NCBI GenBank assembly: GCA_016204355.1
Contig: JACQKT010000016.1
Span: 47,269-111,268 of the forward strand
From: Candidatus Liptonbacteria bacterium
Lineage (GTDB): Bacteria > Patescibacteriota > Minisyncoccia > UBA6257 > 2-01-FULL-56-20
Length of the DNA: 64,000 nt
Direction of reading: 5' to 3'
The notes under the pieces were generated by a model. That model was not told where the DNA came from. It was given only the letters and a program-made list of their open reading frames with translations, and did no database searches. This document shows positions 10,059 through 31,463 of the stretch, piece by piece. How positions within the stretch are numbered: position 1 is the first letter of the stretch; each line of letters starts with the position of its first letter. Made by a program: the position numbers and the translations under genes.

Positions 10059-10141
10059 TATGGATTTAAAAATGGAGATTTATGATTTGTGAATGGGAAA
10101 AATCTTGATTCGTAAATCTTAAATCGTAAATCATCGACATC

Positions 10142-17958: not shown

Positions 17959-18020
17959 TGGTTATTAGTTTTGGGTTTAGGCGCCGGTTTTTCGCATGCG
18001 CCGGCGGCCACAACTAAAAC
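17959..18020 (-). repeat. Intercistronic hairpin repeat, copy 1 (full, exactly fills stop-to-start gap)
   Basis: Minus strand reads GTTTTAGTTGTGGCCGCCGG...ACCGGCGCCTAAACCCAAAACT...ATG; homologous to 31408-31463. Confidence 0.7.
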
Positions 18021-18998
18021 TTATTTTTTGTCGACCATCTCGCGCTTCGCTTCTTTCAAATCGTGCTCGAGCATTATCTTTATAAGTTCTTTGAATTTTA
18101 CTTTGGGGTCGAACCCGAAGGCATTTTTTGCCTTGGAAATATCACCGAAAAGTATCGTATTCGTAGCCGGCCGCAAAAATTTAGGATTTACCTTGACGTA
18201 TTTCGACGGGTCTAAATTCACCTGTCTGAAAGTTTCATCGACGAACTCCTGGACCGAGTGCGTTTCGCCCGTTGAAATTATGTAATCGTCGGCCTTCGGC
18301 TGCTGCAAAATGCTCCAGGCGGCTTCCATGTATTCTTTCGAATAACCCCAGTCGATTTTGGCGGAAAGGTCGCCGAGCTCGAGAGCATTCTGGAGACCGA
18401 GCGATATTCTGGCGGCGGCTTTGGTAACTTTTCTCGAAAGGTATTCATCCGGCCGGCGGGGAGATTCATGATTGTAAAAAATCGCCGTGCCCACGAACAT
18501 GTCGTAGGTTTCGCGGTAAAACCTGCTGATTACCGCCGCCAGAACTTTGGCGCAGGCGTACGGGCTTTGCGGCTGGAAGTCCGTATTTTCCGTCTGCGGG
18601 ATATCTGTCGTTTTTCCGAACATGTGAGAAGACAGCGGCTGGAACACTTTTATTTTCGGATTGAGCTGGCGGATTATCTCAAGAAGGCGTCCCACAGCCG
18701 CTCCCGTCACGTTGTACTGAAAATCAACGGCCTCGAAACTCCAGCCGACGTGGTCCTGGTCGGCTTCGTTATAAATTTCGTCCGGCTGAACAGTCGTTAT
18801 TATTCTGTAAAGAGAAGTCGAATCCAAAATATCGCCGCGGTGAAGCGTAATCTTATCCGTAAAATGTTCGATGTTCCGCGTATTGCCGGTCGCGGTTTTC
18901 CGGTACATGCCGTGGACTTCGTATCCTTTCTCCAAGAGCACTTCCGCGAGATAAGAACCATCCTGTCCTGTAACGCCGAGAATCAGAGCTTTTTTCAT
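18021..18998 (-). CDS. GDP-mannose 4,6-dehydratase paralog (divergent; His replaces the catalytic Glu)
   Basis: [35 protein letters not shown]. The active-site stretch reads LSSHMFG instead of SSEMFG. Confidence 0.7.
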   Translation of the reverse strand: MKKALILGVTGQDGSYLAEVLLEKGYEVHGMYRKTATGNTRNIEHFTDKITLHRGDILDSTSLYRIITTVQPDEIYNEADQDHVGWSFEAVDFQYNVTGAAVGRLLEIIRQLNPKIKVFQPLSSHMFGKTTDIPQTENTDFQPQSPYACAKVLAAVISRFYRETYDMFVGTAIFYNHESPRRPDEYLSRKVTKAAARISLGLQNALELGDLSAKIDWGYSKEYMEAAWSILQQPKADDYIISTGETHSVQEFVDETFRQVNLDPSKYVKVNPKFLRPATNTILFGDISKAKNAFGFDPKVKFKELIKIMLEHDLKEAKREMVDKK

Positions 18999-19068
18999 TG
19001 AAATAAAAAGTGCCTTTATCTTACAAAAAGTTTTATAAAAGTAAAAGGGTTGGCAAACAAAGCAGTTT

Positions 19069-20355
19069 TTGACTTTGTTAATGGATAAATTTATCTTTAA
19101 TCAAACAATGAAAATCGCAATTGTATCGATAAATCTCGAGGCGCAAGGCGGGGGCAACCGCCAGATTTTGATTCTTGCAAGAAACCTTCAGAAGATGGGG
19201 AACAAGGTCGCGATATACACAGTCGCCGCAAATAAAGGAGCATTCTCGAAAATTCAGGAAAATTTGGATGTCAGGGTTATTCCTGCGCCGGGCGGAGCGA
19301 TGGACTGGAAAGCGAAACAAACGGGGTTCATCGGCAGAATGCTTTCAAGGATGCACCATTACCGGCAGGAACTGGAGGCGGCGAAGACGATTGCCGAAGC
19401 GATGGACGCCGATTTCGATGTCGTGAACGTGCACGATTTCGCCTATCAGGCGGCGTATTTTTACAAAAAGAGAAATCCGTCGTGCCGCGTCGTCTGGACA
19501 ATGAACGAGCCGCCGTATATTCATCTTAAAAAAGACGACTTCCTTTCCAATATCGGCAGTATCGTTTACAACAAAATGCGCGATTTCACTGAAAAGAAAT
19601 TCATTCGTGCCGTCGATGCCGGGGCTGTTCTCGCGCCTTTCCAGATGGAGTGGTTGAAAAAAAGGGGAGTAAATGAATCGAGAGTGATAATAAGCGGCGT
19701 CGATTTCGATGACTTCTACGCGCCGGCAAAAAGATTGCCTCAGGATTTGAGCAAAGAGCCCTTCGGCAAGGCTCAGAGCGGGCCGCTGAAGTTGATGACG
19801 CTCGGAACGCCGAACAAATATCGCCGGTACGAAGACGCGATAATTGCCGCTAAAATTCTCCGCGATAAGGGATTGAATGTTCGCCTAGATGTCGTTGCCA
19901 ATAACGTCTGGCAGGAAAACGAATATTGCGGAATGCTCGAAAAGCTCGTTAAAGAAAACAATCTCGAAAGTATCGTAAAGCTGAGTTTCGCGGGCGTTTC
20001 AGAAGAAGAACTGCGCCGGCTTTACAAGGAAAGCCATATACTTTTGCATCTTATCCACGTGCCGCCTATAAGGAGCGGTTCGACTTTCGGACTCGTTATA
20101 TGGGAAGCGATGGCGGCGGGAATTCTTGTTATAGCAAACCACGAACCGAAGCTCGGCTCGCGGCTGACCGACGGCGAAAACGCGGTTTTCGTAAAGCCCG
20201 AGAACGCCGCCGACCTTGCCGAAAAAATAGAAAAAATCGCCTCGCAGCCGGAACTATATTTCAAAATCGCGCAAAGCAGCCAGCGGTTCGTCAAAGAAAA
20301 CATATCGTGGGACATTTATGCCCGCGAAATGATGGAGTTGTTTACCCCAGTATAA
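19069..20355 (+). CDS. Glycosyltransferase family 4 (GT-B, retaining)
   Basis: MKIAIVS start region (probable true start ~19108); C-terminal EAMAAGILVI motif; paralog of the GT4 at 29.1 kb. Confidence 0.75.
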   Translation: MTLLMDKFIFNQTMKIAIVSINLEAQGGGNRQILILARNLQKMGNKVAIYTVAANKGAFSKIQENLDVRVIPAPGGAMDWKAKQTGFIGRMLSRMHHYRQELEAAKTIAEAMDADFDVVNVHDFAYQAAYFYKKRNPSCRVVWTMNEPPYIHLKKDDFLSNIGSIVYNKMRDFTEKKFIRAVDAGAVLAPFQMEWLKKRGVNESRVIISGVDFDDFYAPAKRLPQDLSKEPFGKAQSGPLKLMTLGTPNKYRRYEDAIIAAKILRDKGLNVRLDVVANNVWQENEYCGMLEKLVKENNLESIVKLSFAGVSEEELRRLYKESHILLHLIHVPPIRSGSTFGLVIWEAMAAGILVIANHEPKLGSRLTDGENAVFVKPENAADLAEKIEKIASQPELYFKIAQSSQRFVKENISWDIYAREMMELFTPV

Positions 20356-20370
20356 AATATTTATTGCCGG

Positions 20371-20616
20371 CGGTTTGTAAAGAAAACCGTCTCGCAGGCC
20401 GAACGGGCATGGTGCGTCATCCGTGTTTTTCGGAACCGCGGTTCGTACACTCCTGCGGCGTACGCCCGCTGCCTCTCGCTCCGACGTATTCGCAAAGCGA
20501 ATAACCAAGCCGTCGGAGCTCCGAGAGCTTCCTTAAAAATACGGATGACGCGAGCGAGGCCGAGAGCGAGCGCAAATTCCTCGCTGGGGAATTTGATAGC
20601 GTGTTTTCGTACAAAC
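20371..20616. repeat. GC-rich ~245-bp imperfect palindrome with nested inverted repeats (MITE-like or structured-RNA element)
   Basis: Terminal inverted repeats GCCGGCGGTTTGTA / TACAAACCGCCGGC; internal pairs GCGTCATCCGT/ACGGATGACGC and CTCTCGCTCCGACG/CGTCGGAGCTCCGAGAG; centre TATTCGCaaaGCGAATA. Confidence 0.7.
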
Positions 20617-20634
20617 CGCCGGCGGGAAAACTTA

Positions 20635-21831
20635 TTAAGAAATAACCTTGAACTTCGGGATGGAAACTATGAATTTCCCGCCCCTCTTGAAGAATCCTTT
20701 TTCTCTTTCCTTCTTTTTGAAGGATTCGATGAACCCCCACGGGAGAACGAAGAAATAATCGGGCTTTTCTGCCCTTGCATTACCCTCTTTTATTATCGGA
20801 ACCAATGTTCCGACGGTGAACTTGCCCCATTTTTTGGGGTCTTTGTCGGCAGCGGCGGCGATCAGTTTCGAGTTCAAGCCGTAATACTGGAGAATCGTGT
20901 TTCCCTTCGTTGAAGCTCCGTAAGCGTAAACCTTCTTTCCTTTTTTAACTTCCTTTTTGATGAACTCGACGGTTTTTTTCTTGTTTTCGACGAGACGTTT
21001 CGCGAATGCCTTGTAGTCGAATTTCAGTTCGCGGTATTTTATGCTTCCTTTCTTCAATTTTCTCGCGAACAGGCGGTAGCTGCCGCCGTTTATGCCGTTT
21101 TCCTCGACTTTGAAAATTTCCAATCCGTTTTTCTCAAAAAGATAAACCAGCGAGGGATAAGAATAAAATTCCAAATGTTCGTGGCAGATATTTCCAACGT
21201 CGTTTTTGAGAATCATCGGCTTGAGCGTCATCATCTGGGCGATGAAAAGGCCGTCGTCGGCGAGAACGCGCGCCGCGTCCCTGACGAACTGACTCGGGTC
21301 TTCCATGTCGTAGAACATCCCGATGGCCGTGATGATTTTCGCTTTCGGCAGACCGAGCTTGTCATATGTTTTCTTGTACCAGAAATCGTGGATGGCATAA
21401 TCGGCGTTTTTGCGGAGTTTCGCCTGAAGGTTGTCCGCCGGCTCACAGCCAACGCGAATGTATTTCTTCGGAACGAAACCGAGCATTGTGCCGTCGTTGG
21501 CGCCGATATCGAGAAAAACATCGCCTTTTTTCGGCTTGGCCATTTTTATGGTCTGCGAAACTATTTGCTTGAGGTCGCTGACGATGACGTTATTTATTCC
21601 GGACTCGTACCAGTAGTGGCGCGAGTACATAAGTTCCTGCGGAGCCGTGTGCTTGAGTTGAAGAAGGTCGCATTTCGGATTTTGGCAGAGGACCAGTTCG
21701 AGAGGCGAGCGCATTCCTTTTTCTTTTCTGCTTTTTACGAAAGTGGAAACGTAAAGATTTCCGAGATTGAGAATGCTTTTGAGTTTATTCGACCCGCAGA
21801 GCCGGCATGTTTTTCTTGTGATTATTTTCAT
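20635..21831 (-). CDS. SAM-dependent methyltransferase with N-terminal zinc ribbon and C-terminal C-methyltransferase domain (TylCIII/NDP-hexose 3-C-methyltransferase-like)
   Basis: Start taken at MKIITRKTCRLCGSNK...CQNPKC (4-Cys ribbon); LDIGANDG SAM motif; C-terminal Methyltransf_14-like region. The upstream 84 codons of the ORF are intergenic. Confidence 0.65.
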   Translation of the reverse strand: MKIITRKTCRLCGSNKLKSILNLGNLYVSTFVKSRKEKGMRSPLELVLCQNPKCDLLQLKHTAPQELMYSRHYWYESGINNVIVSDLKQIVSQTIKMAKPKKGDVFLDIGANDGTMLGFVPKKYIRVGCEPADNLQAKLRKNADYAIHDFWYKKTYDKLGLPKAKIITAIGMFYDMEDPSQFVRDAARVLADDGLFIAQMMTLKPMILKNDVGNICHEHLEFYSYPSLVYLFEKNGLEIFKVEENGINGGSYRLFARKLKKGSIKYRELKFDYKAFAKRLVENKKKTVEFIKKEVKKGKKVYAYGASTKGNTILQYYGLNSKLIAAAADKDPKKWGKFTVGTLVPIIKEGNARAEKPDYFFVLPWGFIESFKKKEREKGFFKRGGKFIVSIPKFKVIS

Positions 21832-21877
21832 GAGGTATATGTTAAAGGAAATGTTATTAAGGGGCAATATCCGGGGG

Positions 21878-21905
21878 TTGACAGCTGCCGTCCATAGGCT
21901 ATAAT
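21878..21905 (+). promoter_or_regulatory. Near-consensus sigma70 promoter (TTGACA-16 nt-TATAAT), 11 nt before the ATG (near-leaderless)
   Basis: Read directly; drives the RHH-cysD-cysN operon. Confidence 0.6.
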
Positions 21906-21916
21906 TACCTGTAATT

Positions 21917-22129
21917 ATGAAATACACCACCGTTTCCATACCGGAGCCGCTCAACAAAAAGCTCCAAAAAATCATCAAAAACAGCGGGTTTGCCTCGACT
22001 TCTTCTTTTGTTACCTTCATTCTCCGGGAGGTTCTTTCCCAGCAGAACGAAGACGGCGAAAAAGAAAAAGTGTCTTTTGACAAAGAAAGCGTAAAGGAAC
22101 ACTTGAGAGCGCTCGGCTATCTTAAATAA
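21917..22129 (+). CDS. Ribbon-helix-helix (CopG/MetJ-like) DNA-binding protein
   Basis: TVSIPEPLNKKLQKIIKNSGFASTSSFVTFILREVL matches the RHH beta-strand/helix pattern; 70 aa. Confidence 0.6.
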   Translation: MKYTTVSIPEPLNKKLQKIIKNSGFASTSSFVTFILREVLSQQNEDGEKEKVSFDKESVKEHLRALGYLK

Positions 22130-22153
22130 AATATCAAGCCAATTTTCAATAAC

Positions 22154-22939
22154 ATGAATGCGCGTTTAAAAGAACTCGAAGAAAAAAGCATATCGGTCAT
22201 AAGGGAAGCGAAGGCGCGCTTCAAGAATATCGCCATGCTTTGGAGCATGGGCAAAGATTCCACAGTAACGCTTGGGCTCGCCCGGAAAGCGTTTCTCGGA
22301 GAAATTCCGTTTCCCGTAATACATATCGATAACGGCATAGATTTTCCGGAAACTTACGAACTCCGCGAGAAAGTTTCCAAAGATTGGGGATTCGAAATGG
22401 TTGTCGAAAAAAGCATAGTCAAACGGGATAAAATTTCCGGAGTGGATTGCTGCGGCGCGAACAAAACGGACGCGCTCAAAAAAGTCATGGATGAAAGAAA
22501 AATCGACGCGCTAATAGTTTCCATACGCCGCGACGAACACGGCATCCGCGCCAAGGAACGCTATTTTTCGCCGCGCGACAAGCAGTTCAACTGGGATTAC
22601 AAAAATCAGGCGCCGGAAATTTGGGACTATCTTTCGGATTTTCCGGGGAGCGACCATGTCCGCGTGCATCCGCTTCTTCACTGGCAGGAAATAGACGTTT
22701 GGAAATATCTTAAAGCCGAAAATCTTCCGGTCAATCCGCTTTATTTTTCGAAGAACGGAAAAAGATTCCGTTCGCTCGGATGCACGAAGTGCACGGTGGC
22801 AATGGATTCGGAAGCCAAAACCATAGACGAGATAATCGCCGAACTCGAAAAAACAACCGATTCCGAACGCGGCGGCCGAGCGCAGGACAAAGAAAAGGAA
22901 TATGTGATGCAGCAGTTGCGGGCGTTAGGGTATATGTAA
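22154..22939 (+). CDS. cysD: Sulfate adenylyltransferase subunit 2 (PAPS-reductase-fold ATP pyrophosphatase)
   Basis: LWSMGKDSTV PP-loop; overall collinear with E. coli CysD including the C-terminal ...RALGYM tail. Confidence 0.8.
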   Translation: MNARLKELEEKSISVIREAKARFKNIAMLWSMGKDSTVTLGLARKAFLGEIPFPVIHIDNGIDFPETYELREKVSKDWGFEMVVEKSIVKRDKISGVDCCGANKTDALKKVMDERKIDALIVSIRRDEHGIRAKERYFSPRDKQFNWDYKNQAPEIWDYLSDFPGSDHVRVHPLLHWQEIDVWKYLKAENLPVNPLYFSKNGKRFRSLGCTKCTVAMDSEAKTIDEIIAELEKTTDSERGGRAQDKEKEYVMQQLRALGYM

Positions 22940-22965
22940 TTTTGGGTTTAGGTGTAAGCGCCAGT
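22940..22965. repeat. Intercistronic hairpin repeat, partial copy in inverted orientation (left end of insertion)
   Basis: TTTTGGGTTTAGGTGTAAGCGCC is ~identical to the 17969-17987 arm. Confidence 0.55.
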
Positions 22966-22973
22966 TAAATATT

Positions 22974-23410
22974 ATGGATGAGAAACAAAACCGGAAAACA
23001 ATTAAAAACTTCACGGATTTAGAAGTTTATCAAAACAGTTATAGTGCCTGCATTCGCGTTCATAAAGAATTACTGCCCCTACTTCCAAAGAACGAGAAAT
23101 TTGATTTATGCGATCAACTTTCTCGTTCAACAAAGGCGGTTCCAAGATTAATTGCTGAAGGATATGGCAAAAAGCATCAGAAAGAAAGCGGGATTCCAAA
23201 AATATTTAGACGATGCTATGTCTGAATGTAATGAAACTATTGTCGGAATATCACAATGCCGAGATATTTACTTACGGTATCGACAAAAATTTATGCAGCG
23301 AATTAATGGAAATATACAGCATAACTGCGCGTCAACTTTTTCGATTAGCCGAAGCATGGGATAAATTTGCTTTGGGTTACAGAAATAAAAAAACCAGCGG
23401 CCAAAACTAA
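22974..23410 (+). pseudogene. Four-helix-bundle protein (23S rRNA intervening-sequence protein family), disrupted by two +1 frameshifts
   Basis: Frame 0: FTDLEVYQNSY...LSRSTKAVPRLIAEGYGKK. The family pattern continues in frame +1 (GFQKYLDDAMSECNETIVGISQCRDIYL) and then frame +2 (LCSELMEIYSITARQLFRLAEA). Confidence 0.5.
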
Positions 23411-23414
23411 ACCC
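23393..23414 (+). repeat. Intercistronic hairpin repeat, partial copy abutting the cysN ATG (right end of insertion)
   Basis: CGGCCAAAACTAAACCC-ATG versus CGCCTAAAACTAAACCCAAACCC-ATG at 31441-31466. Confidence 0.55.
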
Positions 23415-24584
23415 ATGCCCACTCCAAGCATAGTAGTTCTTGGCCATAAGGACCACGGTAAATCCACATTTCTGGGACGGCTTCTTTTTGAGACAAACTC
23501 GGTTCCCGCCGATAAAGTGCAGACAATCAAAGAAATCGACGCCGAAGCCGGGCGTCCTTTCGAATGGGCGCATCTTCTCGACAGTTTCAAAGAAGAACGT
23601 GAGCAGGAAATGACGTACGATACCGCTTCGGTCTTCGTAAACGGCCGCGATGGGGCCTTGTACGTTTTCATAGACGTTCCCGGGCATTCCGAGCTTGTCC
23701 ACCAAATGATCTCCGGCGCTTCCAGGGCGGATATGGCGATTTTGATGGTTTCTGCCAAAGAAGGAATAGACGAAATGAGCGTCGGGCACCTTATGCTCGC
23801 GGAGTTCCTCGGCTTGGAAAAACTAATCGTCGCCGTAAACAAGATGGACGAGTTCGGGTATGAAGAAGCGGCGTTCAGCGGCATAAAAGAAAAGGTGGAA
23901 AAAATACTGGTCGGCAAATTTTCCGCGGAAGACGTTCATTACATCCCTCTTTCCGCGCGCGAGGGCGAAAACATAACGAAAGCTTCTTCGAAAATGCAGT
24001 GGTACGAAGGTTCAAGCGTTTTTGAAAAAACGGAAGAAATTATCGGTGGAATGAAGCCAGTTTCTTTGCCGTTGCGCGCGGTTGTCCAGGATGTTTACAT
24101 CCGCGCCGGAAATCGGATAGCGGCAGTCAGCGTCAAAAGCGGCGAAATGAAAAGAGGAGAAAAAATCGTTGCGCTGCCGTCCGGAAAAGTTTTTGCGGCC
24201 GATAAATTACTTTCCGTTTCCGGGGACGAAACGCAATCGGTCAAAGCAGGGGAAAACGCCGGAATTTTCGCCGAAAAGGAATGGGAAATTTCCCGCGGAA
24301 CAATCATCGCTCCAGAAAATAACAGGCCGAATTTCGCGAAAGACGCCGACAGCGAGATTTTTCTTTTCGAAAATTTCAAACCGAACGAAGCGGCAACCGT
24401 GGAATGCGGTTCGCTGAACGCTTCCCAGGGATTGATCCCGTCAGCCGCGCCGAATAAAATCCAGAAGCTGAAACTTAACCTTTCTTCCCCGGTTCTTTTC
24501 GACAAAGAAGAAACTTTTTTGAACAAGTTCGTGATAAAGCAAGGCGGTGATATAATCGGGGTCGGCAGGATAAAAGACTTTTAA
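23415..24584 (+). CDS. cysN: Sulfate adenylyltransferase subunit 1 (GTPase, EF-Tu-like), short form without APS-kinase domain
   Basis: GHKDHGKSTF (G1), DVPGH (G3), NKMD (G4). Start placed at ATG 23415, supported by the shared upstream repeat; the ORF extends further upstream into the pseudogene. Confidence 0.75.
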   Translation: MPTPSIVVLGHKDHGKSTFLGRLLFETNSVPADKVQTIKEIDAEAGRPFEWAHLLDSFKEEREQEMTYDTASVFVNGRDGALYVFIDVPGHSELVHQMISGASRADMAILMVSAKEGIDEMSVGHLMLAEFLGLEKLIVAVNKMDEFGYEEAAFSGIKEKVEKILVGKFSAEDVHYIPLSAREGENITKASSKMQWYEGSSVFEKTEEIIGGMKPVSLPLRAVVQDVYIRAGNRIAAVSVKSGEMKRGEKIVALPSGKVFAADKLLSVSGDETQSVKAGENAGIFAEKEWEISRGTIIAPENNRPNFAKDADSEIFLFENFKPNEAATVECGSLNASQGLIPSAAPNKIQKLKLNLSSPVLFDKEETFLNKFVIKQGGDIIGVGRIKDF

Positions 24585-24586
24585 TC

Positions 24587-25948
24587 ATGTCCAAAAAACC
24601 CAACGTAATACTTATAACCCTCGACGCGTTGCGCCCGGACCATCTGGGCGTTTACGGCCACAAGAAAAATACAAGCCCGTTTCTCGACTCGCTTGCGGAA
24701 AGAGGGGTTGTTTTCAAAAACTCTTTTTCGACCGGTTCGGCTACGCCGCAATCTTTCCCGGGAATACTGTCTTCGACTTACCCGCTGGATTTCGGCGGAT
24801 ATTCTCGGGAAGCGTTAAATAAAAGGACCTTGATTTCGGAGGTTTTTCAAAAAGCCGGTTATAAAACGATGGGATTCCACTCCAACGCCTATCTTTCGGA
24901 ATATTTCGGATATGGCAAAGGATGGGATGTTTTCAGGTATCTTAACTACTTCAAGAACAGCGGCGTTTCGCGGGCGATGCGTAGCAGCACCTGGCAGGCG
25001 AAGTTCGCCAAAAAACTTTTCGACTGGGAAACGAAAGGAGCCGAGAAGAAAACGATTTTTGGCCGCATAGCGAAACTGCTCGAGCCGGTTATTTCCACGC
25101 TGAGAAAAATCTATCTGAACATAGTCCGGCCGATTCCTCCCTATTACACTGCCTTCGAGATGAACGAAGCGGTAAAAGAAGAAATAAAAGAGAAACAGAA
25201 CAAGCCGGTTTTTCTTTGGGTTCACTACATGGACGCGCACGACCCTTACGGGCTTTTTCTGCGCAAAGGAAAAAATTTTTTCCCGAAAATGAAGTCGTAT
25301 TTTCTCGATTATCTTATGACTTTTTTCGGGGAATATCCGAAAGTGAACCGGCTTTTCAGGAGGTTTTATCTGGAGATGTACGACGAAGGCATACGGAATA
25401 TAGACAACGCGCTTAAAGAGCTTTTTGCTCGTCTTTCCGAAAGGGGAATCCTAAACGACGAAACCGCTGTTTTCATAACCGCTGACCACGGCGAAGAATT
25501 CGGCGAACACGGTGGGTTTATACATCCGCAAAAAGCTTTCGGCGAGAACATAAAAGTTCCTCTGATTGTTGTCGCTCCGGAGAAATTTGCCGGAGAGCCG
25601 GGGAAAACGGAAACGCCGCGTTCGCTTATCGACCTTGCGCCGACGATGCTCGCGTATTCCGGAATCTCTCAGCCGGCGAATTTCAGGGGTAAAAATATTT
25701 TCGACGGCGAAGAAAGAGACGTCATAATAGAACTTTCAACGCACGAAGCCGACCTTTCCGGAATCAGCCTTAAGGCGTCGGCGATAATTTCGGAAGGCCA
25801 CAAACTTATAAAAATGAAATCATGCAGTTTGCTTTTTTCGCTCGACGACCCGAGGGACGAAAAAAATCTTTTCGGGAAAAACGAAAAAATTGATTCGTTG
25901 CTCGGGAAGAAGCTTGAAAAATTCTTGAATTCAAACCGCAACAAATGA
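24587..25948 (+). CDS. Sulfatase-like alkaline-phosphatase-superfamily hydrolase/transferase, cytosolic, Thr at the nucleophile position
   Basis: ITLDALRPDHLGVYG, TSPFLDSLAERGVVF. The sulfatase signature C-x-P-S-R is replaced by T-P-Q-S-F. No signal peptide or TM segment. Confidence 0.6.
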   Translation: MSKKPNVILITLDALRPDHLGVYGHKKNTSPFLDSLAERGVVFKNSFSTGSATPQSFPGILSSTYPLDFGGYSREALNKRTLISEVFQKAGYKTMGFHSNAYLSEYFGYGKGWDVFRYLNYFKNSGVSRAMRSSTWQAKFAKKLFDWETKGAEKKTIFGRIAKLLEPVISTLRKIYLNIVRPIPPYYTAFEMNEAVKEEIKEKQNKPVFLWVHYMDAHDPYGLFLRKGKNFFPKMKSYFLDYLMTFFGEYPKVNRLFRRFYLEMYDEGIRNIDNALKELFARLSERGILNDETAVFITADHGEEFGEHGGFIHPQKAFGENIKVPLIVVAPEKFAGEPGKTETPRSLIDLAPTMLAYSGISQPANFRGKNIFDGEERDVIIELSTHEADLSGISLKASAIISEGHKLIKMKSCSLLFSLDDPRDEKNLFGKNEKIDSLLGKKLEKFLNSNRNK

Positions 25949-27021
25949 GAAGTCTTTATATTTTATTGGCAGGCGCGGACCAGTTCCCGAAAAGCTTTTT
26001 CGAAGGCAAAGGAATTTTTTTCCGGCCGTACGACGGTGGGAGCCCCAACGCACTTTTTTGGAACGATTTTTACGAAACGTGCGCCAAAAAAGGAGTATCT
26101 GTTAAATCCTATACGGAATGGAACAGAGAAAAGTCCAAGCCCGACGACATACTGCTCGTTTTAAACCACCCCGGCGAAACGTTGCTCTGGCGTCTTTATT
26201 ATTATCTCCGCTATCCCAAGGCGGGAGGGGGATTTTTACTTAAACGCAGAACATTTTTCCGCGAAAATTATAAATTTTTCAAAAGGAGGATTTTGATGCA
26301 GCTCGAACCGCTTGTCGCGATGCCATACGTGTATTCGCAGCTCGACGACGTTGTAAGGGCTGGTTTTTACGACAAAATTTTCATTACGAGCCGCGTTTCG
26401 AACGAAAAGTGGGAATACTTCAACTATTTCGAACATCGCGCCAGAAATATAATAAGCCCGCATTTTGACGCCTCCAAAACAAAGTACATAACGATGGTGA
26501 ATTCGAATGTCAGGCCGCATTCGCTAAAAGGCGACCTCTACGGCGAGCGGCTGAAAGCTATAAAATTTTTCAGCAATTCCCTCGATTTCGACCTGTACGG
26601 CTTCTATTGGGATTTGCCGGTAAGGCATCCGTTGTATTTCGGCTACGACAAATACGTAAAGAAATCCTGGCGCGGAAGAATCCCGGACAAATTGAAAACC
26701 GTCAGCGAATACAAATTCTCAATTTGCTTCGAAAACGGCGCGTATCCGGGATGGGTCAGCGAGAAAATTTTCGATTGCCTGGCCGCCGGTTCCATCCCCG
26801 TTTATCTCGGAGCTCCGGACATAGAAAAAATCGTTCCGCAGGATTGTTTCGTAGATTTCAGAAAATTCGGAAGTTATGCGGAGTTAAATAAATTTTTGCA
26901 CAATCTTTCCGAGAAGGAACTGGAAGAATACCGAAATAGGATAAAAAAATTTCTTAGCGCACCTGCGGATTACGGCAAAGTGAAAAAATTCGCCGATAAG
27001 GTTATTGGGGTAATCAAGTAA
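25945..27021 (+). CDS. Glycosyltransferase family 10 (alpha-1,3/4-fucosyltransferase-like)
   Basis: YKFSICFENGAYPGWVSEKIFDCLAAGSIPVYLG matches the GT10 FEN-x-YVTEK-type motif. Confidence 0.6.
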   Translation: MRSLYILLAGADQFPKSFFEGKGIFFRPYDGGSPNALFWNDFYETCAKKGVSVKSYTEWNREKSKPDDILLVLNHPGETLLWRLYYYLRYPKAGGGFLLKRRTFFRENYKFFKRRILMQLEPLVAMPYVYSQLDDVVRAGFYDKIFITSRVSNEKWEYFNYFEHRARNIISPHFDASKTKYITMVNSNVRPHSLKGDLYGERLKAIKFFSNSLDFDLYGFYWDLPVRHPLYFGYDKYVKKSWRGRIPDKLKTVSEYKFSICFENGAYPGWVSEKIFDCLAAGSIPVYLGAPDIEKIVPQDCFVDFRKFGSYAELNKFLHNLSEKELEEYRNRIKKFLSAPADYGKVKKFADKVIGVIK

Positions 27022-27029
27022 AAGGAAAT

Positions 27030-27872
27030 TTACTGCGTTGTGCTCGAGGCGGTAGATGTCGGATTCGGGTTGTATGCGCCGATGTAATACGGCAATGCGT
27101 ATTTTTGCGCTTCGGTGAGGGATTGGTAGCTGTTGCGGGTGTCGCCACGGGCAACATCTGAACTTAAAAGAATCTCTTGCGGATAAGCGGCTTGTAGTTG
27201 CTTGACTCTCGAATCGTTCTCAGCCAATTCTCGCAATTGAGCGTTTGATAAGTTAGGATTGACACTGATTAGCTTGGTCACGCGCGGAAAAGAATTGACG
27301 TGATACCTGTTTTCTTTTTCGCTGTATCTTGTCGGCAAAAGGTAGGTCACTCCTGGCTGGAGCATATAACCAGCTTCAGGATGGTCAGCCGGAACCAAAA
27401 GATCGCCGTAGTTTATTCCGCCTACTACATATAAAACACCGTCTATGTATCCCCCTGTCTGACTAACAATAATAATGCCTCGTGCGCTTCCCTTGATATT
27501 GTAGGCAACCTCCGCTTCAAAATATGTTTGTGGGCGAAGCGCACCTGAGGGTGTGTCGATTTGTTTTATAATCTTCGCTACGAATACGTTATGCGATCCT
27601 CCGACTAATATTCTGTCGTTTGAAAAATCCGCCGCCCATTCATTGTGAATTTCTCTTATAACCAACGGCCCGCTTTTTTCAGCTCCATTCGTGGTTGTTG
27701 CACCTTGCGTAACACCAGATATTTCATCGGACGATTGTGTTACTTTTTCAGTAACAGCAGGAATACTCACGATAATGTCTGGTTCCGAAATTCTGTAGAA
27801 GTAAAAATAGACACTGGTGCCAATAACCACAAGCACGACAATACTTCCTACCAATAAACTTAATTTAGTCAT
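27030..27872 (-). CDS. Hypothetical secreted/membrane-anchored protein
   Basis: N-terminal TM anchor, Thr/Ser-rich linker, C-terminal PNPTSTASSTTQ; no identifiable domain. Confidence 0.4.
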   Translation of the reverse strand: MTKLSLLVGSIVVLVVIGTSVYFYFYRISEPDIIVSIPAVTEKVTQSSDEISGVTQGATTTNGAEKSGPLVIREIHNEWAADFSNDRILVGGSHNVFVAKIIKQIDTPSGALRPQTYFEAEVAYNIKGSARGIIIVSQTGGYIDGVLYVVGGINYGDLLVPADHPEAGYMLQPGVTYLLPTRYSEKENRYHVNSFPRVTKLISVNPNLSNAQLRELAENDSRVKQLQAAYPQEILLSSDVARGDTRNSYQSLTEAQKYALPYYIGAYNPNPTSTASSTTQ

Positions 27873-27920
27873 GTTTACGTTGTATTAACATTTTGCGTTA
27901 TTATTTTCGACTTTTGAAAT

Positions 27921-28118
27921 CTATGGCCAGAAATAGTTAAAATCTTCTATATCACGATTACCAAGCCAAGTTTGCGTAGTTTGTATGTAATACATAACGT
28001 TACTTATTATACTATGCGCCAAACCCAATGCATGTCCAAGCTCATGAGCAAAAGTATTCTGCGTTGATGAGCCGCCTGATTGGTTAATCGTGTAAAGTAC
28101 CCATACTGCGCGGCCCAT
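27921..28118 (-). pseudogene. Remnant of a matrixin/metzincin zinc metalloprotease (C-terminal 65 aa only)
   Basis: HELGHALGLAHS (HExxHxxGxxH) + Met-turn SNVMYY + LGNRDIEDFNYFWP. The in-frame upstream sequence hits a stop after 18 codons with no protease N-terminal half. Confidence 0.45.
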
Positions 28119-28179
28119 TTGCTGCGAAAAAGTAATTGATTTTAAATAGAACTGATGCGATAATTGGCTTTATCCAAGC

Positions 28180-29097
28180 ATGAGAAAATTACTCATAAAA
28201 CCATATGTTTTTCTGAGAAACCTTTTCAGAGGAAGAGGTTTATCGAGAATAAAGTTTTTGAAGAATATCAATCTCGCGGCGGACAAGTTTCTTAGGGGCA
28301 AGACCGAAGAATTCATGATGAAAAGAGGCGGGAAAATGTACATGGACCCGTTCGGTTATCTGAGCGAGAGATTTCAGGAATACGAGCCGTACGAAAGCGA
28401 CCTTATCGAGTCGCTTCTTAAGGAGGGCGACACATTCGTGGACATTGGCGCGTCAATCGGCTGGTACACGCTCATCGGCGCGAATAAAGTCGGTCCTTCG
28501 GGGAAAGTTTACGCTTTTGAGCCCGACCCGAGGAGTTCCGCCCTTCTTCGAAAAAACGTTGACGCGAACGATTACAAAAACGTCACAGTAGTTGAAAAAG
28601 CCGTTTCCGAAAAAGTCGGCGAGCATGAAATATTTTTAAGGGAAGAAAAATGGGGGAATAATTCTTTTTTCAATCCGATGCAGGACCCGGAAACTTTGGT
28701 GCTTCCTTTCGTAAGGGGCAATTCACCCGAAGGATACGCGAAAGAGACCAGCGTTAAGACGGTTTCGCTCGACGATTATTTCAAGGATACGCGCATAGAT
28801 TTGATGAAAATCGACACCGAAGGAGCGGAAAATCTCGCCTTGAAGGGAGGAAAGGGAGTTTTTACGAAAAACAGGAACATAACCGTAATCTGCGAATATA
28901 TCCCGTTCATAATGGAAGCCACCGGTGGCAAAGGCGAACACGAAAGATTTCTGCGCGGTTTCGAGGAACTTGGTTTTTCCATTCAGGACCTTGATGAGCA
29001 CGAAAAACGCCTGGTGCCTGTTTCCGTAGAAGAAGTTCTTGAGAAATATACAGCTGGGAAACGCAACGGCACGAATCTGCTTTTCAAGCGCGCCTAG
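28180..29097 (+). CDS. FkbM-family SAM-dependent methyltransferase
   Basis: VDIGASIGWYT...VYAFEPDP...MKIDTEGAE pattern of TIGR01444. Confidence 0.65.
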   Translation: MRKLLIKPYVFLRNLFRGRGLSRIKFLKNINLAADKFLRGKTEEFMMKRGGKMYMDPFGYLSERFQEYEPYESDLIESLLKEGDTFVDIGASIGWYTLIGANKVGPSGKVYAFEPDPRSSALLRKNVDANDYKNVTVVEKAVSEKVGEHEIFLREEKWGNNSFFNPMQDPETLVLPFVRGNSPEGYAKETSVKTVSLDDYFKDTRIDLMKIDTEGAENLALKGGKGVFTKNRNITVICEYIPFIMEATGGKGEHERFLRGFEELGFSIQDLDEHEKRLVPVSVEEVLEKYTAGKRNGTNLLFKRA

Positions 29098-29122
29098 TGC
29101 GTTGTGTACCGGCGACAAAGAC

Positions 29123-30349
29123 GTGGAGAAAAAACCCCTTAAAATTGGAATAGTTCACCTCGACCTTTCCCATCCAATGGGTGATACGTATTCGGTTGCC
29201 TGCATAGCGCAAGGTTTAAGACGGCTTGGGCACGAGGTCTCGGTGTGGACACCGGTGTTCGATGCCGGGCCGTTCGCCGACAAGTGGAAAGGACTTGAGC
29301 TGAAAATAATCCCTTCGGACAAGCCTTTAAGCAAAGTTCTCGAATACATAAATTCGCCGAACCCGCTAAAGAAAATCATCGGGAGATTGAAAGTGCGCCG
29401 CTGGTCCGACGCTTCGGCGCGCGCGATTGCCGCAACACTGCCGGCGAACCTCGACGTTCTCGACTGCCACAACTGGTACGCGTACCGCGCCGCAAAATAT
29501 TACCGGTCGCGCAATCCGTCGTGCAGGATAGTCTGGATAATGCATGATATGCCCTCCAATTACAGGGCGAAAAAAAATCCGGTAACGAATATTTTAAGCT
29601 GGCTTGCGTTCAAACTGGAACCGTTGGCGGAAAAAGATTACTACCGTTACGTCGACGAAGTTATAGTAATGGACAAACACAGCATTCCGATCGCCGCGCA
29701 GTGCGGCAAGCCGGTGGCACTCTTATATCTCGGACTCGATTATCCGCATTTCGAACAGCCTGTAAAAATACGCGACGAATTTAAAAAGGGGCAGGTCACG
29801 CTTCTCGGTGTCGGCGCTTTGAGCCCGTATCGGAGATACGAAGACATCGTTTCTGCGGTTTCCATCCTTCGGAAAAATGGAATAAAGGCGAGCGCGATGA
29901 TTGTGTGCCGCGACGCCTGGGGGAATCCCGGCTACCGAAAATCATTCGACGAATTTGTTGAATCATCGAACGCGGCGCCGTACATTACCATCAATTACGA
30001 AGGCGTGAGCGCGGAGGGGCTGCTCGAAACTTTTCGCGCCACGGATATTTTCGTTTTTCCGAACGACATAGAAATATGGGGGATGGCGGCGTTCGAGGCG
30101 ATGGCGGCGGGAATGCCTTTGATAGTTTCGAACGTGACGAGCGCGGCGATGTACCTGAAAGAAAGGAACGGGGCGGCGCTTTTCGTCGACCCGCGCAGGC
30201 CGGAGCAAATAGCGGCAGCGGCGGAAAAACTGATAAATGACCGCGAACTTTATCTCAAAATGGCGAAGGACGGCCAGAAATTCGTAAAAGAAAACTTGAG
30301 TTGGGGCGCTTACGCAAAAGGTTTTCTCGATGCTGCTTTCAAAAAATAA
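29123..30349 (+). CDS. Glycosyltransferase family 4 (GT-B)
   Basis: LKIGIVHLD start region (GTG 29123 or ATG 29176; the ORF opens at 29039, overlapping the upstream gene); FEAMAAGMPLIVSN; paralog of the GT4 at 19.1 kb (SRNPSCR-VW motif shared). Confidence 0.7.
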   Translation: MEKKPLKIGIVHLDLSHPMGDTYSVACIAQGLRRLGHEVSVWTPVFDAGPFADKWKGLELKIIPSDKPLSKVLEYINSPNPLKKIIGRLKVRRWSDASARAIAATLPANLDVLDCHNWYAYRAAKYYRSRNPSCRIVWIMHDMPSNYRAKKNPVTNILSWLAFKLEPLAEKDYYRYVDEVIVMDKHSIPIAAQCGKPVALLYLGLDYPHFEQPVKIRDEFKKGQVTLLGVGALSPYRRYEDIVSAVSILRKNGIKASAMIVCRDAWGNPGYRKSFDEFVESSNAAPYITINYEGVSAEGLLETFRATDIFVFPNDIEIWGMAAFEAMAAGMPLIVSNVTSAAMYLKERNGAALFVDPRRPEQIAAAAEKLINDRELYLKMAKDGQKFVKENLSWGAYAKGFLDAAFKK

Positions 30350-30358
30350 CCCACATTC

Positions 30359-31414
30359 ATGCGCATAATTTACACCGGCATCCAATATTCGTTCTACAAA
30401 AAAGAAGCGGGGTTGAGCTTCGAACACAACAATTTTTATTTGAGCCTCAAAGACTTTCCGGGGGTAGAGATAAAGTATTTTCCGTTCGACAGGATTCTCG
30501 AAGTGGGCAAGAAAAAATTCAACGAGGAACTTTTTGAAGCCGCAAAATCATGGCAGCCGGATTTGCTTTTCGTGTTCATGCTTACGGATGAGGTAAGCAA
30601 GGAAACTCTTTCCAAGATTAGGCGCGAAACGCAAACGAAAACGCTGGCTTGGTTTTCGGACGACACTTGGAGATTTTGGAGTTATTCAAAGCATTGGGCG
30701 CCGTTTTTCGACTGGGTTGTGACCGTTTACGACGAGCCGTTCGAGTGGTATCAAAAACTCGGATTCAAAAACGTAATAAAGTCCTGCTGGGCGGCGAATA
30801 CGAAGCTTTATAAACCGTCAGCAGACGAATTGCCGACGACAGACGTGAGCCTCGTCGGTTCCTGGAACAAGGGTCGGAAGAGAGTTATCGATGCGTTGAG
30901 AAAGGCGGGAGTGAAAGTTTCCGTATATGGCGCGGGTTGGGGCGAAGGAAGAATTTCCGAAGAAGGCATGATAAAACTTTTCGGGAGCAGCAAAATAAAT
31001 CTTGGCCTTAACCAGCCGAACATGGATTATTCGGCAAAGTCGCTCGGCAAACTTTTTTTCAGAAGGAGCGTTCACAGAATAGTGCCGGATTTTTGGCATT
31101 TCCCGCGAAACCTCCATTCTTTTTTGGTCGGCAGGAAAATTTCGCAAATAAAGGCAAGGGTTTTCGAGATACCGGCTTGCGGAGGATTTCTTCTAACGGG
31201 ACACGCAAAAGGCCTGGAGCGTTATTACGAAACGGGGAAAGAAATAGCGGTTTACAAAAACGAAGAAGAAATTCCGGAAATCGTCAAATACTATCTGGTT
31301 CATGAGGAAGAAAGAAAAAAAATCGCCCGCGCCGGATATGAACGGACAATCCGCGACCATGTTTACGAGAAAAGGTTCGACGAGATATTTAGTAAAATTG
31401 GTTTAAAGTTTTAG
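30359..31414 (+). CDS. CgeB-family glycosyltransferase (DUF3880 + Glycos_transf_1_2-like)
   Basis: C-terminal KARVFEIPACGGFLLT typical of CgeB-like GTs. Confidence 0.55.
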   Translation: MRIIYTGIQYSFYKKEAGLSFEHNNFYLSLKDFPGVEIKYFPFDRILEVGKKKFNEELFEAAKSWQPDLLFVFMLTDEVSKETLSKIRRETQTKTLAWFSDDTWRFWSYSKHWAPFFDWVVTVYDEPFEWYQKLGFKNVIKSCWAANTKLYKPSADELPTTDVSLVGSWNKGRKRVIDALRKAGVKVSVYGAGWGEGRISEEGMIKLFGSSKINLGLNQPNMDYSAKSLGKLFFRRSVHRIVPDFWHFPRNLHSFLVGRKISQIKARVFEIPACGGFLLTGHAKGLERYYETGKEIAVYKNEEEIPEIVKYYLVHEEERKKIARAGYERTIRDHVYEKRFDEIFSKIGLKF

Positions 31415-31463
31415 GTGTGGCCACCAGTACTCAAGACCGGCGCCTAAAACTAAACCCAAACCC
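31408..31463 (+). repeat. Intercistronic hairpin repeat, copy 2 (full; overlaps the upstream stop, abuts the downstream ATG)
   Basis: TTTTAGGTGTGGCC...ACCGGCGCCTAAAACTAAACCCAAACCC-ATG. Confidence 0.7.

What the first reader, a model, noticed from the sequence alone, without database searches (positions are those of the whole stretch)
17959..31463. Family of ~55-60 nt hairpin repeats sitting exactly in stop-to-start gaps
Two full copies occupy the intercistronic junctions gmd2->aminotransferase (17959-18020, minus) and CgeB-GT->GT2 (31408-31463). Each has an internal inverted repeat (TTTTAG(G/T)TGTGGCC ... GGCGCCTAAA) and ends in CTAAACCCAAA(CCC) immediately before the ATG, with no Shine-Dalgarno. 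Two partial copies in opposite orientation (22940-22965 and 23393-23414) bracket the decayed four-helix-bundle gene inserted between cysD and cysN. Four-helix-bundle genes are the classic cargo of 23S rRNA intervening sequences, which have terminal inverted repeats cut by RNase III. That suggests an IVS-like element family colonising mRNA intercistronic sites, where it could provide RNase III processing sites or translation coupling. I do not recognise this arrangement as described.
Basis: partly seen in the sequence, partly recalled or inferred. Interest (0 to 1): 0.7.

Follow-up and report, generated by a model that had tools for sequence, protein, structure and literature searches.

The report
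Stem-only relics of four-helix-bundle gene cassettes
The two ~60-nt hairpins between genes are gene-less copies of a small, apparently mobile cassette (a four-helix-bundle gene of the kind known from 23S rRNA intervening sequences, enclosed in a long stem) that settles between co-directional genes in Patescibacteria and other bacteria; I found no description of this placement in the papers I could search.

Summary
Copy A (17959-18020, minus) fills the gmd-to-DegT gap. Copy B (31408-31463) fills the GT1-to-GT2 gap. The two "partial copies" at cysD|cysN are the left and right arms of one full element whose loop carries a frameshifted four-helix-bundle (4HB, PF05635/TIGR02436) gene.

A covariance model built only from the arms of 4HB genes, without A or B, finds A (E 1.6e-11) and B (E 1.1e-8) as the only other members in the window.

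In 69 distinct metagenomic 4HB loci:
- The flanks pair with each other better than with flanks of other loci (p 1.6e-7).
- They carry an oriented core, GCCNGT...ACNGGC.
- The genes sit between co-directional ORFs (48 of 56).

Close relatives show filled and empty sites: gmd|DegT is empty in L004, and smallORF|cysD is filled in L004 but empty here. Other cassettes (a different 4HB, a GIY-YIG mini-ORF) occupy the same junctions.

So the hairpins are MITE/REPIN-like derivatives of an IVS-type cassette family living in operons of a Candidatus Liptonbacteria MAG. RNase III processing, translational coupling and the way the element moves remain inferred. RNA-level selection on the stem was tested and not shown.

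The parts
17959..18020 (-). Copy A: gene-less hairpin element that fills the whole gap between the gmd stop and the DegT-family aminotransferase ATG
   Evidence: Sequence. Fold -19.5 kcal/mol. R1 hit 17964-18027, 45.3 bits, E 1.6e-11. The orthologous junction in L004 is a 9-nt gap with no hairpin.
31408..31463 (+). Copy B: gene-less hairpin element between the Glyco_trans_1_2 GT and the GT2; the upstream stop TAG (31412-31414) lies in its left arm
   Evidence: Sequence. Fold -15.8 kcal/mol, 14-bp stem. R1 hit 36.2 bits, E 1.1e-8. The orthologous junction in L087/L089 holds a different 117-aa 4HB cassette with unrelated arms.
22940..23414 (+). Copy C: full cassette between cysD and the cysN-like GTPase gene, made of left arm, decayed 4HB gene and right arm
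   Evidence: 89% nucleotide identity to the intact cassette of L004 at the same junction. The arms align with A and B. Cofold of the arms -19.7 kcal/mol.
22940..22965 (+). Left arm of copy C (TTTTGGGTTTAGGTGTAAGCGCCAGT), carrying the core GCCAGT
   Evidence: (22.6 bits; part of the training set).
22974..23409 (+). Four-helix-bundle (PF05635/TIGR02436) pseudogene with two +4-nt tandem duplications (GAAA, TTAC) that shift the frame
   Evidence: Three-frame translation. Reconstructed protein scores 50.7 bits against TIGR02436, cut-off 24. 84% identical to intact P0001. Insertions located in alignment A4.
23393..23414 (+). Right arm and tail of copy C (ACCAGCGGCCAAAACTAAACCC). It overlaps the last codons and stop of the 4HB reading frame and abuts the cysN ATG
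23415..23417 (+). cysN-like start codon derived from the cassette tail (ATA to ATG) after a 12-nt deletion removed the ancestral ATG
   Evidence: Alignment with L004. The ancestral leader AAATT(A/G)GC ATG ACT CCA is shared by L004 and L087.
22130..22153 (+). Empty site: a 24-nt gap between the small ORF (21917-22129) and cysD. In relative L004 this junction carries a gene-less hairpin of the same family
   Evidence: L004 9107-9169, R1 38.7 bits, E 2.2e-8. Sequences; alignment.
21878..21905 (+). Perfect sigma-70 consensus (TTGACA-16-TATAAT) upstream of the smallORF-cysD-[cassette]-cysN-sulfatase gene string, so copy C is probably co-transcribed with these genes
   Evidence: 12 of 12 matches. 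Consensus match only; transcription not shown.

Best explanation
The repeats are gene-less, stem-only derivatives of a cassette family. A full cassette is a four-helix-bundle gene (PF05635/TIGR02436, the protein family of 23S rRNA intervening sequences and of DGR Avd) enclosed by a long imperfect stem. The left arm is G/T-rich and the right arm C/A-rich. The arms carry an oriented core, GCCNGT...ACNGGC.

Shown:
- The cassettes lie in gaps between co-directional protein genes.
- They start at or in the upstream stop codon and end a few bases before the next start.
- They are present or absent at orthologous junctions of close relatives.
- They co-exist with gene-less hairpins made of the same arms.

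Inferred:
- They are selfish mobile DNA, comparable to a MITE or REPIN with its ORF-carrying partner.
- They are co-transcribed with the host operon.
- They are tolerated because the compact stem, a stop codon at its foot and an unstructured A/C-rich tail leave both neighbouring genes expressible. In copy C the tail has even supplied the new cysN start codon.
- The stem of the full cassette is a plausible RNase III substrate, as in rRNA intervening sequences. The shorter stems of A (17 bp, interrupted) and B (14 bp) are borderline substrates.
- The conserved core suggests a sequence-specific protein partner, possibly the 4HB protein itself.
For: - Family link: model R1, built from loop-removed arms of 4HB cassettes only, finds A and B at E 1.6e-11 and 1.1e-8 and nothing else in 64 kb.
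- Stem around the ORF: duplex energy of cognate flanks averages -36.3 kcal/mol, against -25.0 for shuffles and -29.8 for non-cognate flanks (p 1.6e-7). In 20 of 69 loci the cognate pair beats all 25 non-cognate partners. Arm sequences differ completely between lineages yet still pair.
- Core motif: GCCNGT in 44 of 69 left arms and ACNGGC in 38 of 69 right arms, against about 5-6% background and 3 of 69 in the wrong arm.
- Intercistronic position: the upstream ORF is on the same strand in 64 of 70 loci, the downstream ORF in 59 of 65, and both in 48 of 56. Median gaps are 55 and 68 nt. None of 20 loci checked contains rRNA.
- Turnover between relatives: gmd|DegT is filled here and empty in L004, with orthologs 73-79% identical. 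smallORF|cysD is empty here and filled in L004. GT1_2|GT2 carries hairpin B here and a different 4HB cassette in L087/L089, with orthologs 77% identical. cysD|cysN carries a 4HB cassette here and in L004 and a GIY-YIG mini-ORF with a 15-bp perfect inverted repeat in L087-L090.
- Gene-less hairpins built from the local arms in other lineages: L023, L068, L012, L062.
- Protein identity: TIGR02436. The AlphaFold model (pLDDT 87.6) is closest to Xcc0516 (2GSC), BT_0352 (2RLD) and Avd (4DWL).
- Not terminators: no T-run follows A or B, while real terminators in the window have one.
Against: - Only three family members occur in 64 kb, so high copy number in this genome is not shown.
- No compensatory base changes occur within the close subfamily (0 of 19 pairs).
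- Sense and antisense duplexes are equally stable (41 of 69, p 0.09). The inverted repeat may therefore matter at the DNA level only.
- No transposase, recombinase or reverse transcriptase is associated with the cassette, and 4HB proteins have no known catalytic activity, so the means of movement is unknown.
- Target-site duplications (TAA/TAAA/ATA next to the arms) are suggestive only, in A/T-rich context.
- Filled and empty sites could partly reflect deletion rather than insertion.
- Non-cognate arms also pair fairly well, because all lineages share G/T-rich against C/A-rich arm composition.
Confidence: 0.7

Rival explanations
1. The hairpins are host cis-regulatory RNA structures (translational coupling devices, processing or stabilising sites) that evolved for these particular operons. 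Their likeness to the 4HB flanks would be secondary.
For: They lie exactly between stop and start of co-directional genes and fold stably. They are in the sense orientation in all four close copies.
Against: The same sequence sits at unrelated junctions: gmd|DegT, GT|GT2, smallORF|cysD in L004. It is absent from orthologous junctions of relatives whose flanking proteins are 73-79% (gmd|DegT) and 69-93% (smallORF|cysD) identical. The orthologous GT|GT2 junction carries a cassette with unrelated arms. No Rfam family matches at E<=1.
Confidence: 0.1
2. The hairpins are purely decay products. Each junction once held a full 4HB cassette and the ORF was deleted in place. The stem-only form never moves on its own, so it is not MITE-like.
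For: Copy C shows decay in progress: two frameshifts and a 12-nt deletion. The orthologous B junction holds a full cassette in L087/L089. A and B keep the last codons and stop of the 4HB frame (AAA/AAG ACC GGC GCC TAA), as in L007.
Against: The cassette at the orthologous B site has unrelated arms, so B does not derive from it. Gene-less copies differ in location between the window and L004 although both share the cysD|cysN cassette. Explaining that by decay alone needs several independent full insertions, each followed by a near-complete ORF deletion.
Confidence: 0.15
3. The hairpins are DNA recombination sites of an integron-like or other site-specific system (attC-like), and the small ORFs are gene cassettes.
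For: They are imperfect inverted repeats between co-directional promoterless genes. Different small ORFs (two 4HB types, GIY-YIG) occupy the same junction in different relatives. A conserved oriented core motif is present. There is no strand bias in stem stability.
Against: The ORF lies inside the hairpin, not next to it. The hairpins are single and about 13 kb apart, not one per short cassette in an array. By reading, the arms run GTT...AAC from the base of the stem, the reverse of attC R''/R' (RYYYAAC...GTTRRRY). No integrase was seen among the neighbouring genes listed, though the window was not scanned completely.
Confidence: 0.04
4. The match is due to chance, contamination or an assembly artefact.
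For: Short motif counts alone are only weakly above shuffles.
Against: Model E-values are 1e-11 and 1e-8. Copy A is reproduced in a separate Logan assembly. Related copies occur in syntenic relatives. The flanking genes are intact and annotated in the NCBI record.
Confidence: 0.01

Closest known systems
23S rRNA intervening sequences carrying an S23p/four-helix-bundle ORF (Leptospira, Coxiella burnetii; PMC4990558), and the 23S_rRNA_IVP-encoding insertions in CPR 16S/23S rRNA genes (PMC11270868)
   Same: The ORF family is the same: TIGR02436, with the fold closest to 2GSC and 2RLD. The architecture is the same: an ORF in the loop of a stem formed by terminal inverted repeats. Both show patchy, transfer-like distribution, ORF decay and ORF-less versions.
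   Different: The host molecule is an mRNA or operon junction between protein genes, not rRNA helix 25 or 45. RNase III excision is not shown here. The stems of the gene-less copies are shorter (14-17 bp) than the 28-bp Coxiella stem.
REP/REPIN elements with their RAYT gene, and MITEs with their parent transposon (established knowledge, not tested by literature search here)
   Same: Short palindromic, gene-less intergenic elements share their arms with those flanking a single ORF-carrying partner. They show presence/absence polymorphism between relatives.
   Different: The partner ORF is a 4HB protein with no known transposase fold, not a HUH or DDE enzyme. Copy number in the 64-kb window is low. 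No clear target-site duplication was found.
Avd, the accessory protein of diversity-generating retroelements (PDB 4DWL, 8UBE; PMC10053308)
   Same: Homologous four-helix-bundle fold: TM-score normalised to target 0.84, rmsd 2.2 A to 4DWL.
   Different: No reverse transcriptase or template/variable repeat lies next to the cassettes in the loci whose gene tables were read.
23S_rRNA_IVP genes noted between cas genes, for example cmr3|cmr2 in Pleurocapsa (PMC3936711)
   Same: The same gene family is wedged between co-directional genes of an operon.
   Different: That paper read the placement as a functional association with CRISPR-Cas. It did not describe flanking stems or gene-less derivatives.

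Membership tests
23S rRNA intervening sequence (IVS) with S23p ORF | ORF of the PF05635/TIGR02436 four-helix-bundle family | tested here: met
   The reconstructed window protein scores 50.7 bits against TIGR02436 (cut-off 24) and P0001 scores 55.4 bits. PF05635 is recorded on all listed homologs. The model is closest to 2GSC and 2RLD.
23S rRNA intervening sequence (IVS) with S23p ORF | Terminal inverted repeats that form a stem enclosing the ORF | tested here: met
   Cognate flanks average -36.3 kcal/mol, against -25.0 for shuffled and -29.8 for non-cognate flanks, p 1.6e-7. Window C, L004, L005 and L007 were cofolded.
23S rRNA intervening sequence (IVS) with S23p ORF | Inserted in an rRNA gene (23S helix 25 or 45) | tested here: not met
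   No rRNA in the window or in 20 loci. The elements are flanked by protein ORFs on the same strand.
23S rRNA intervening sequence (IVS) with S23p ORF | Excised from the transcript by RNase III | not testable with these tools
   Needs transcript end mapping or an in vitro cleavage assay.
MITE / REPIN-type non-autonomous element | Short gene-less element whose ends match those of a longer ORF-carrying element | tested here: met
   R1, built from 4HB cassette arms only, finds A, B and L004 9107-9169. Other lineages give the same result with their own arms.
MITE / REPIN-type non-autonomous element | Many dispersed copies in one genome | tested here: inconclusive
   Two gene-less copies and one full copy in 64 kb. 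The rest of the 115-kb contig and the genome could not be fetched.
MITE / REPIN-type non-autonomous element | Insertion polymorphism and target-site duplication | tested here: inconclusive
   Filled and empty orthologous sites are shown. Flanking TAA/TAAA/ATA direct repeats can be read at A, B, C and the L004 copy, but the boundaries were chosen after the fact in A/T-rich sequence.
MITE / REPIN-type non-autonomous element | Partner ORF is a transposase (DDE or HUH/RAYT) | tested here: not met
   The ORF is a four-helix bundle with no nuclease or transposase family hit.
Integron attC site | Hairpin lies beside, not around, each cassette ORF, in a co-oriented array next to an integrase gene | tested here: not met
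   The ORF lies in the loop. The hairpins are single and about 13 kb apart. No integrase appears among the annotated neighbours, but the scan of the window was incomplete.
Intrinsic (rho-independent) terminator | G+C-rich stem followed by a run of U | tested here: not met
   A and B are not in the terminator scan and are followed by AAACCC-type tails. Canonical terminators occur elsewhere in the window.
Diversity-generating retroelement | Avd-like gene next to a reverse transcriptase and template/variable repeats | tested here: not met
   No RT family appears among the neighbours in the gene tables of L004, L005, L087 and L089. In the window the neighbours are cysD and cysN.
Any Rfam family | Match to a curated covariance model | tested here: not met
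   Only a tRNA at gathering score in the window. Nothing at E<=1 in 17000-32000.

The most novel reading that the evidence does not exclude
Four-helix-bundle cassettes, of which rRNA intervening sequences would be only the first-noticed subset, are a distinct class of mobile element. They target the stop/start junctions of co-transcribed genes. The 4HB (Avd-like) protein recognises the conserved GCCNGT/ACNGGC core of its own stem. Movement goes through the transcript: the stem-loop RNA is excised by RNase III and copied back by a reverse transcriptase acting in trans, as Avd assists DGR retrohoming. The gene-less hairpins are mobilised in trans by the same machinery.
Probability: 0.12. Interest if true: 0.88.

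Novelty: new variant of a known kind. Interest (0 to 1): 0.66.

Why it matters
What 23S rRNA intervening sequences are, and what their conserved 4HB protein does, has been open since 1993 (PMC4990558 reviews the hypotheses).

If the same ORF-in-a-stem cassette also colonises ordinary operons, leaves stem-only relics and turns over between close relatives, three things follow:
- The rRNA cases are one niche of a wider selfish-element family, not an rRNA peculiarity.
- The question becomes testable with comparative data (arms, core motif, filled and empty sites) and simple biochemistry (4HB binding to the core, RNase III cleavage).
- Annotations change. "Four helix bundle protein" genes found inside cas, glycan and other operons (PMC3936711) need not be functionally linked to their neighbours. 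Short hairpins in Patescibacteria operons can be recognised as relics of these cassettes.

Tried and rejected
- The genome-contig scan with the right-arm pattern CCRGCGSCYAAAACTAAACCC gave two hits in unrelated taxa, about the number I estimated for chance.
- Extending the contig failed. Only about 2.4 kb of Logan sequence lies beyond the right end, and nothing was found for the left end.
- Within-subfamily covariation: 0 of 19 pairs show a compensatory change. Support for the stem comes only from the cognate-versus-non-cognate comparison across lineages.
- The sense-versus-antisense stability test for RNA-level selection was not significant.
- Target-site duplication is readable (TAA/TAAA/ATA) but not statistically defensible.
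- I first took L005's 28-nt GT|GT2 gap as an empty site for copy B. I rejected this because those genes are only 22-34% identical to the window's and are not orthologs.
- I considered that the GT2 N-terminus (MTKPLVS) came from the element tail. I rejected this because an unrelated GT2 without a cassette starts MPKPLVS.
- blastn-short with copy C's own arms did not recover A or B at E<=0.01. The covariance model was needed.
- A sequence search of PDB with P0001 found nothing. The fold search did.
- Literature searches for TIGR02436 and for 'S23 ribosomal protein' with 'inverted repeat' found nothing.


Full report
**Source and setting**

The window is part of a 114,963-bp contig of a metagenome-assembled genome named Candidatus Liptonbacteria bacterium (Patescibacteria/CPR). 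Eight window proteins match NCBI entries MBI4085274-MBI4085327 exactly. G+C is 46%. The region from about 12 to 33 kb is a sugar-nucleotide and glycosyltransferase cluster that also holds a cysD/cysN-like pair and a sulfatase. Co-directional genes are tightly packed, with a median gap of 14 nt. Only 6 of 42 ATG-start genes have a GGAG/GAGG/AGGA core upstream. The missing Shine-Dalgarno sequence at the repeat junctions is therefore a property of the genome, not of the repeat.

**The observation**

- Copy A (17959-18020, minus strand) occupies the entire 62-nt gap between the gmd stop and the DegT-family aminotransferase ATG.
- Copy B (31408-31463) runs from inside the last codons of a Glyco_trans_1_2 glycosyltransferase up to the GT2 ATG. 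That gene's stop TAG is part of GTTTTAG.
- The two copies share GTTTTAG(G/T)TGTGGCC(A/G)CC(A/G)G on the left and CCGGCGCCTAAA on the right, plus a C/A-rich tail.
- They fold at -19.5 and -15.8 kcal/mol, z about -2.
- Neither is followed by a T-run, while genuine terminators elsewhere in the window are.
- No Rfam family matches, even at E<=1.

**Reinterpreting the partial copies**

Between cysD (stop at 22937-22939) and the cysN-like gene (ATG 23415) lies a 4HB gene broken by two frameshifts. The sequence after the cysD stop (TTTTGGGTTTAGGTGTAAGCGCCAGT) aligns with the left arm of A and B in the same orientation. The sequence before the cysN ATG (ACCAGCGGCCAAAACTAAACCC) aligns with their right arm. 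This is therefore one full element whose loop holds the gene, and A and B are the same element without the gene.

**Independent test of the family link**

I built a covariance model (R1) only from loop-removed arms of 4HB genes: window copy C, L004, L005, and the inner and outer arms of L007. A and B were left out. A full-sensitivity scan of the window gave these scores:

| Hit | Bits | E-value |
|---|---|---|
| Copy A | 45.3 | 1.6e-11 |
| Copy B | 36.2 | 1.1e-8 |
| Next unrelated hit | 12.8 | 0.22 |

The window thus holds exactly three members. Copy A is also present in a separate Logan assembly.

**Relatives**

The reconstructed 4HB protein has about 2,000 homologs, all carrying PF05635.

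- The closest, P0001 (84% identical), lies on L004, a syntenic relative. Its cysD is 93%, cysN 75%, gmd 79% and DegT 73% identical to the window's.
- L004 has an intact cassette at cysD|cysN, 89% identical in DNA to copy C. The window copy has acquired two +4-nt tandem duplications (GAAA, TTAC).
- The window copy also lost 12 nt that included the ancestral cysN start. A new ATG arose from ATA in the cassette tail (L087 shares the ancestral leader).
- L004's gmd|DegT junction is a 9-nt gap with no hairpin.
- L004 has a gene-less hairpin (38.7 bits) between the small ORF and cysD, where the window has an empty 24-nt gap.
- In L087/L089 (cysD 92%, GT1_2 and GT2 77% identical) the junction orthologous to copy B holds a different 117-aa 4HB gene. 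Its arms are of unrelated sequence (TACAGACTAC / GTAGTCTGTA).
- In L087-L090 the cysD|cysN junction holds a 75-aa GIY-YIG mini-ORF bracketed by a perfect 15-bp inverted repeat.
- L007 (78% identical 4HB) follows a related GT and has three nested left arms and two right arms.

Junctions are thus hit repeatedly and by different cassettes, and the occupants turn over between close relatives.

**Generality**

Eighty metagenomic loci with relatives of this 4HB were fetched. In the 69 with distinct flanks:

- The 70 nt before the start and the region around the stop pair at a mean of -36.3 kcal/mol. This compares with -25.0 for shuffles and -29.8 for flanks of other loci (Mann-Whitney p 1.6e-7). In 20 of 69 loci the cognate pair beats all 25 non-cognate partners, where about 3 would be expected.
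- Arm sequences fall into quite different types, such as GGTTTAGGTGTGGCCGCCAG and ACGAAGCCCGTATCG, yet each pairs with its own partner.
- Across these types an oriented core persists. GCCNGT is in 44 of 69 left arms (median position -36 from the ATG). ACNGGC is in 38 of 69 right arms (median position +11 from the end of the stop codon). Background is about 5-6%, and only 3 of 69 have the motif in the wrong arm.
- The genes sit between co-directional ORFs: upstream 64 of 70, downstream 59 of 65, both 48 of 56. Median gaps are 55 and 68 nt, about the length of the arms.
- None of 20 loci checked contains rRNA.
- Contexts are varied: glycosyltransferases, O-antigen-ligase-like proteins, radical SAM, dihydroorotase, prepilin peptidase. 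Source names include Patescibacteria lineages, Spirochaetia and Thermodesulfobacteriota.
- Gene-less hairpins made from the local arms occur elsewhere in L023, L068, L012 and L062.

**The protein**

An AlphaFold model of P0001 (pLDDT 87.6) is a four-helix bundle. It is closest to Xcc0516 (2GSC, TM-score normalised to target about 0.90) and BT_0352 (2RLD), and more distantly to DGR Avd (4DWL, 0.84). It passes the TIGR02436 cut-off. No catalytic domain is evident.

**What is and is not shown about function**

Shown:
- The hairpins and the 4HB cassettes are one family.
- The cassette has the ORF-in-a-stem architecture known from 23S rRNA intervening sequences (PMC4990558).
- It lives in intercistronic gaps.
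- It is gained or lost on short evolutionary distances.

Inferred:
- Co-transcription with the operon. A perfect sigma-70 consensus lies at 21878-21905, upstream of the smallORF-cysD string.
- RNase III processing, by analogy with the rRNA elements.
- Tolerance of the insertion because the element abuts or supplies a stop codon and leaves an unstructured A/C-rich leader.

Tests that could have supported an RNA-level role did not. Sense and antisense duplexes are equally stable (p 0.09), and the close subfamily shows no compensatory changes. The oriented core motif suggests a sequence-specific partner, but none is identified. How the elements move is unknown.

**Comparison with what is known**

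- CPR rRNA genes are known to carry insertions encoding 23S_rRNA_IVP and GIY-YIG proteins (PMC11270868).
- 23S_rRNA_IVP genes have been noticed between cas genes (PMC3936711).
- PF05635 is recognised as Avd-like (PMC10053308).
- In the searchable library I found no description of flanking stems around non-rRNA 4HB genes, of their systematic intercistronic placement, or of gene-less hairpin derivatives.

The element fails the rRNA-location criterion of an intervening sequence and the transposase criterion of a MITE or REPIN system. It works like a blend of both. I therefore rate it a new variant of a known kind.

**Verdict**

The central idea, an IVS-like element family in intercistronic sites, is supported and extended. 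The proposed RNase III and translational-coupling roles remain hypotheses.

Noticed in passing
L087 10510-10889 (also L088, L089, L090): At the cysD|cysN junction, where the window has the 4HB cassette, these close relatives carry a 75-aa GIY-YIG mini-ORF. It is tightly bracketed by a perfect 15-bp inverted repeat (ccgagcacataaatt / aatttatgtgctcgg). This is a second kind of ORF-in-a-stem cassette at the same site.
   Followed up: partly
L087 17790-18227 (same in L089): The junction orthologous to copy B holds a different 117-aa 4HB gene (TIGR02436, 118 bits). Its arms have no sequence similarity to the window family, and the left arm encodes the last residues and the stop of the upstream glycosyltransferase.
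   Followed up: partly
L024, ORF starting 18 nt after the 4HB stop (4HB at 801-1238): A GT4 glycosyltransferase reading frame contains a PD-(D/E)XK (PDDEXK_3, GxxExxY-type) domain at residues 249-353, between its two halves. The domain is flanked by low-complexity repeats (NINYNPKYP..., HSDSFVNSDK...). This looks like an in-frame insertion of another mini-ORF cassette.
   Followed up: partly
L007 255-842: The closest JGI relative has three nested left arms and two right arms around one 4HB gene. Its arms contain telomere-like GGGTTTAG(G) repeats with several G-runs. This suggests insertion of elements into elements and possible G-quadruplex potential.
   Followed up: no
window 23403-23417 compared with L004 10425-10451: The window lost 12 nt (AAAATTAGCATG), including the ancestral cysN start codon. 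It now starts at an ATG created by ATA to ATG in the cassette tail, which gives MPTPSIVV instead of MTPSIVV.
   Followed up: yes
69 loci of L004-L086: left arms about 36 nt before the 4HB ATG, right arms about 11 nt after the stop: An oriented core motif, GCCNGT (left) and ACNGGC (right), is conserved across arm types that otherwise share no sequence. The central position is often not a Watson-Crick pair. This may be a protein recognition site.
   Followed up: partly
L018, L019, L026-L029, L031, L033, L040, L044, L046, L047, L053, L055, L060, L074, L075, L078, L086: Nineteen loci share the same downstream gene, a roughly 390-aa GT4 glycosyltransferase. L019 is a 151,534-bp contig, the same length as the longest contig recorded for P0054, which NCBI names Thermodesulfobacteriota. 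The 4HB position seems to be conserved within that lineage.
   Followed up: no
window 21878-21905: A 12-of-12 match to the sigma-70 consensus (TTGACA-16-TATAAT) lies just upstream of a 70-aa ORF with no Pfam hit (21917-22129). That ORF precedes cysD and is conserved in L004 and L087.
   Followed up: no
window 5374-6609 (-): The UvrC homolog is only 411 aa. It matches the N-terminal and C-terminal parts of the 570-620-aa family models in two stretches, so the middle of the protein seems to be missing.
   Followed up: no
window 10059-10141: The 83-nt gap after the RNase Y gene holds a hairpin made of repeated TAAATC(G/T) units (GATTTATGATT...AATCGTAAATC). It is unrelated to the family studied.
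   Followed up: no
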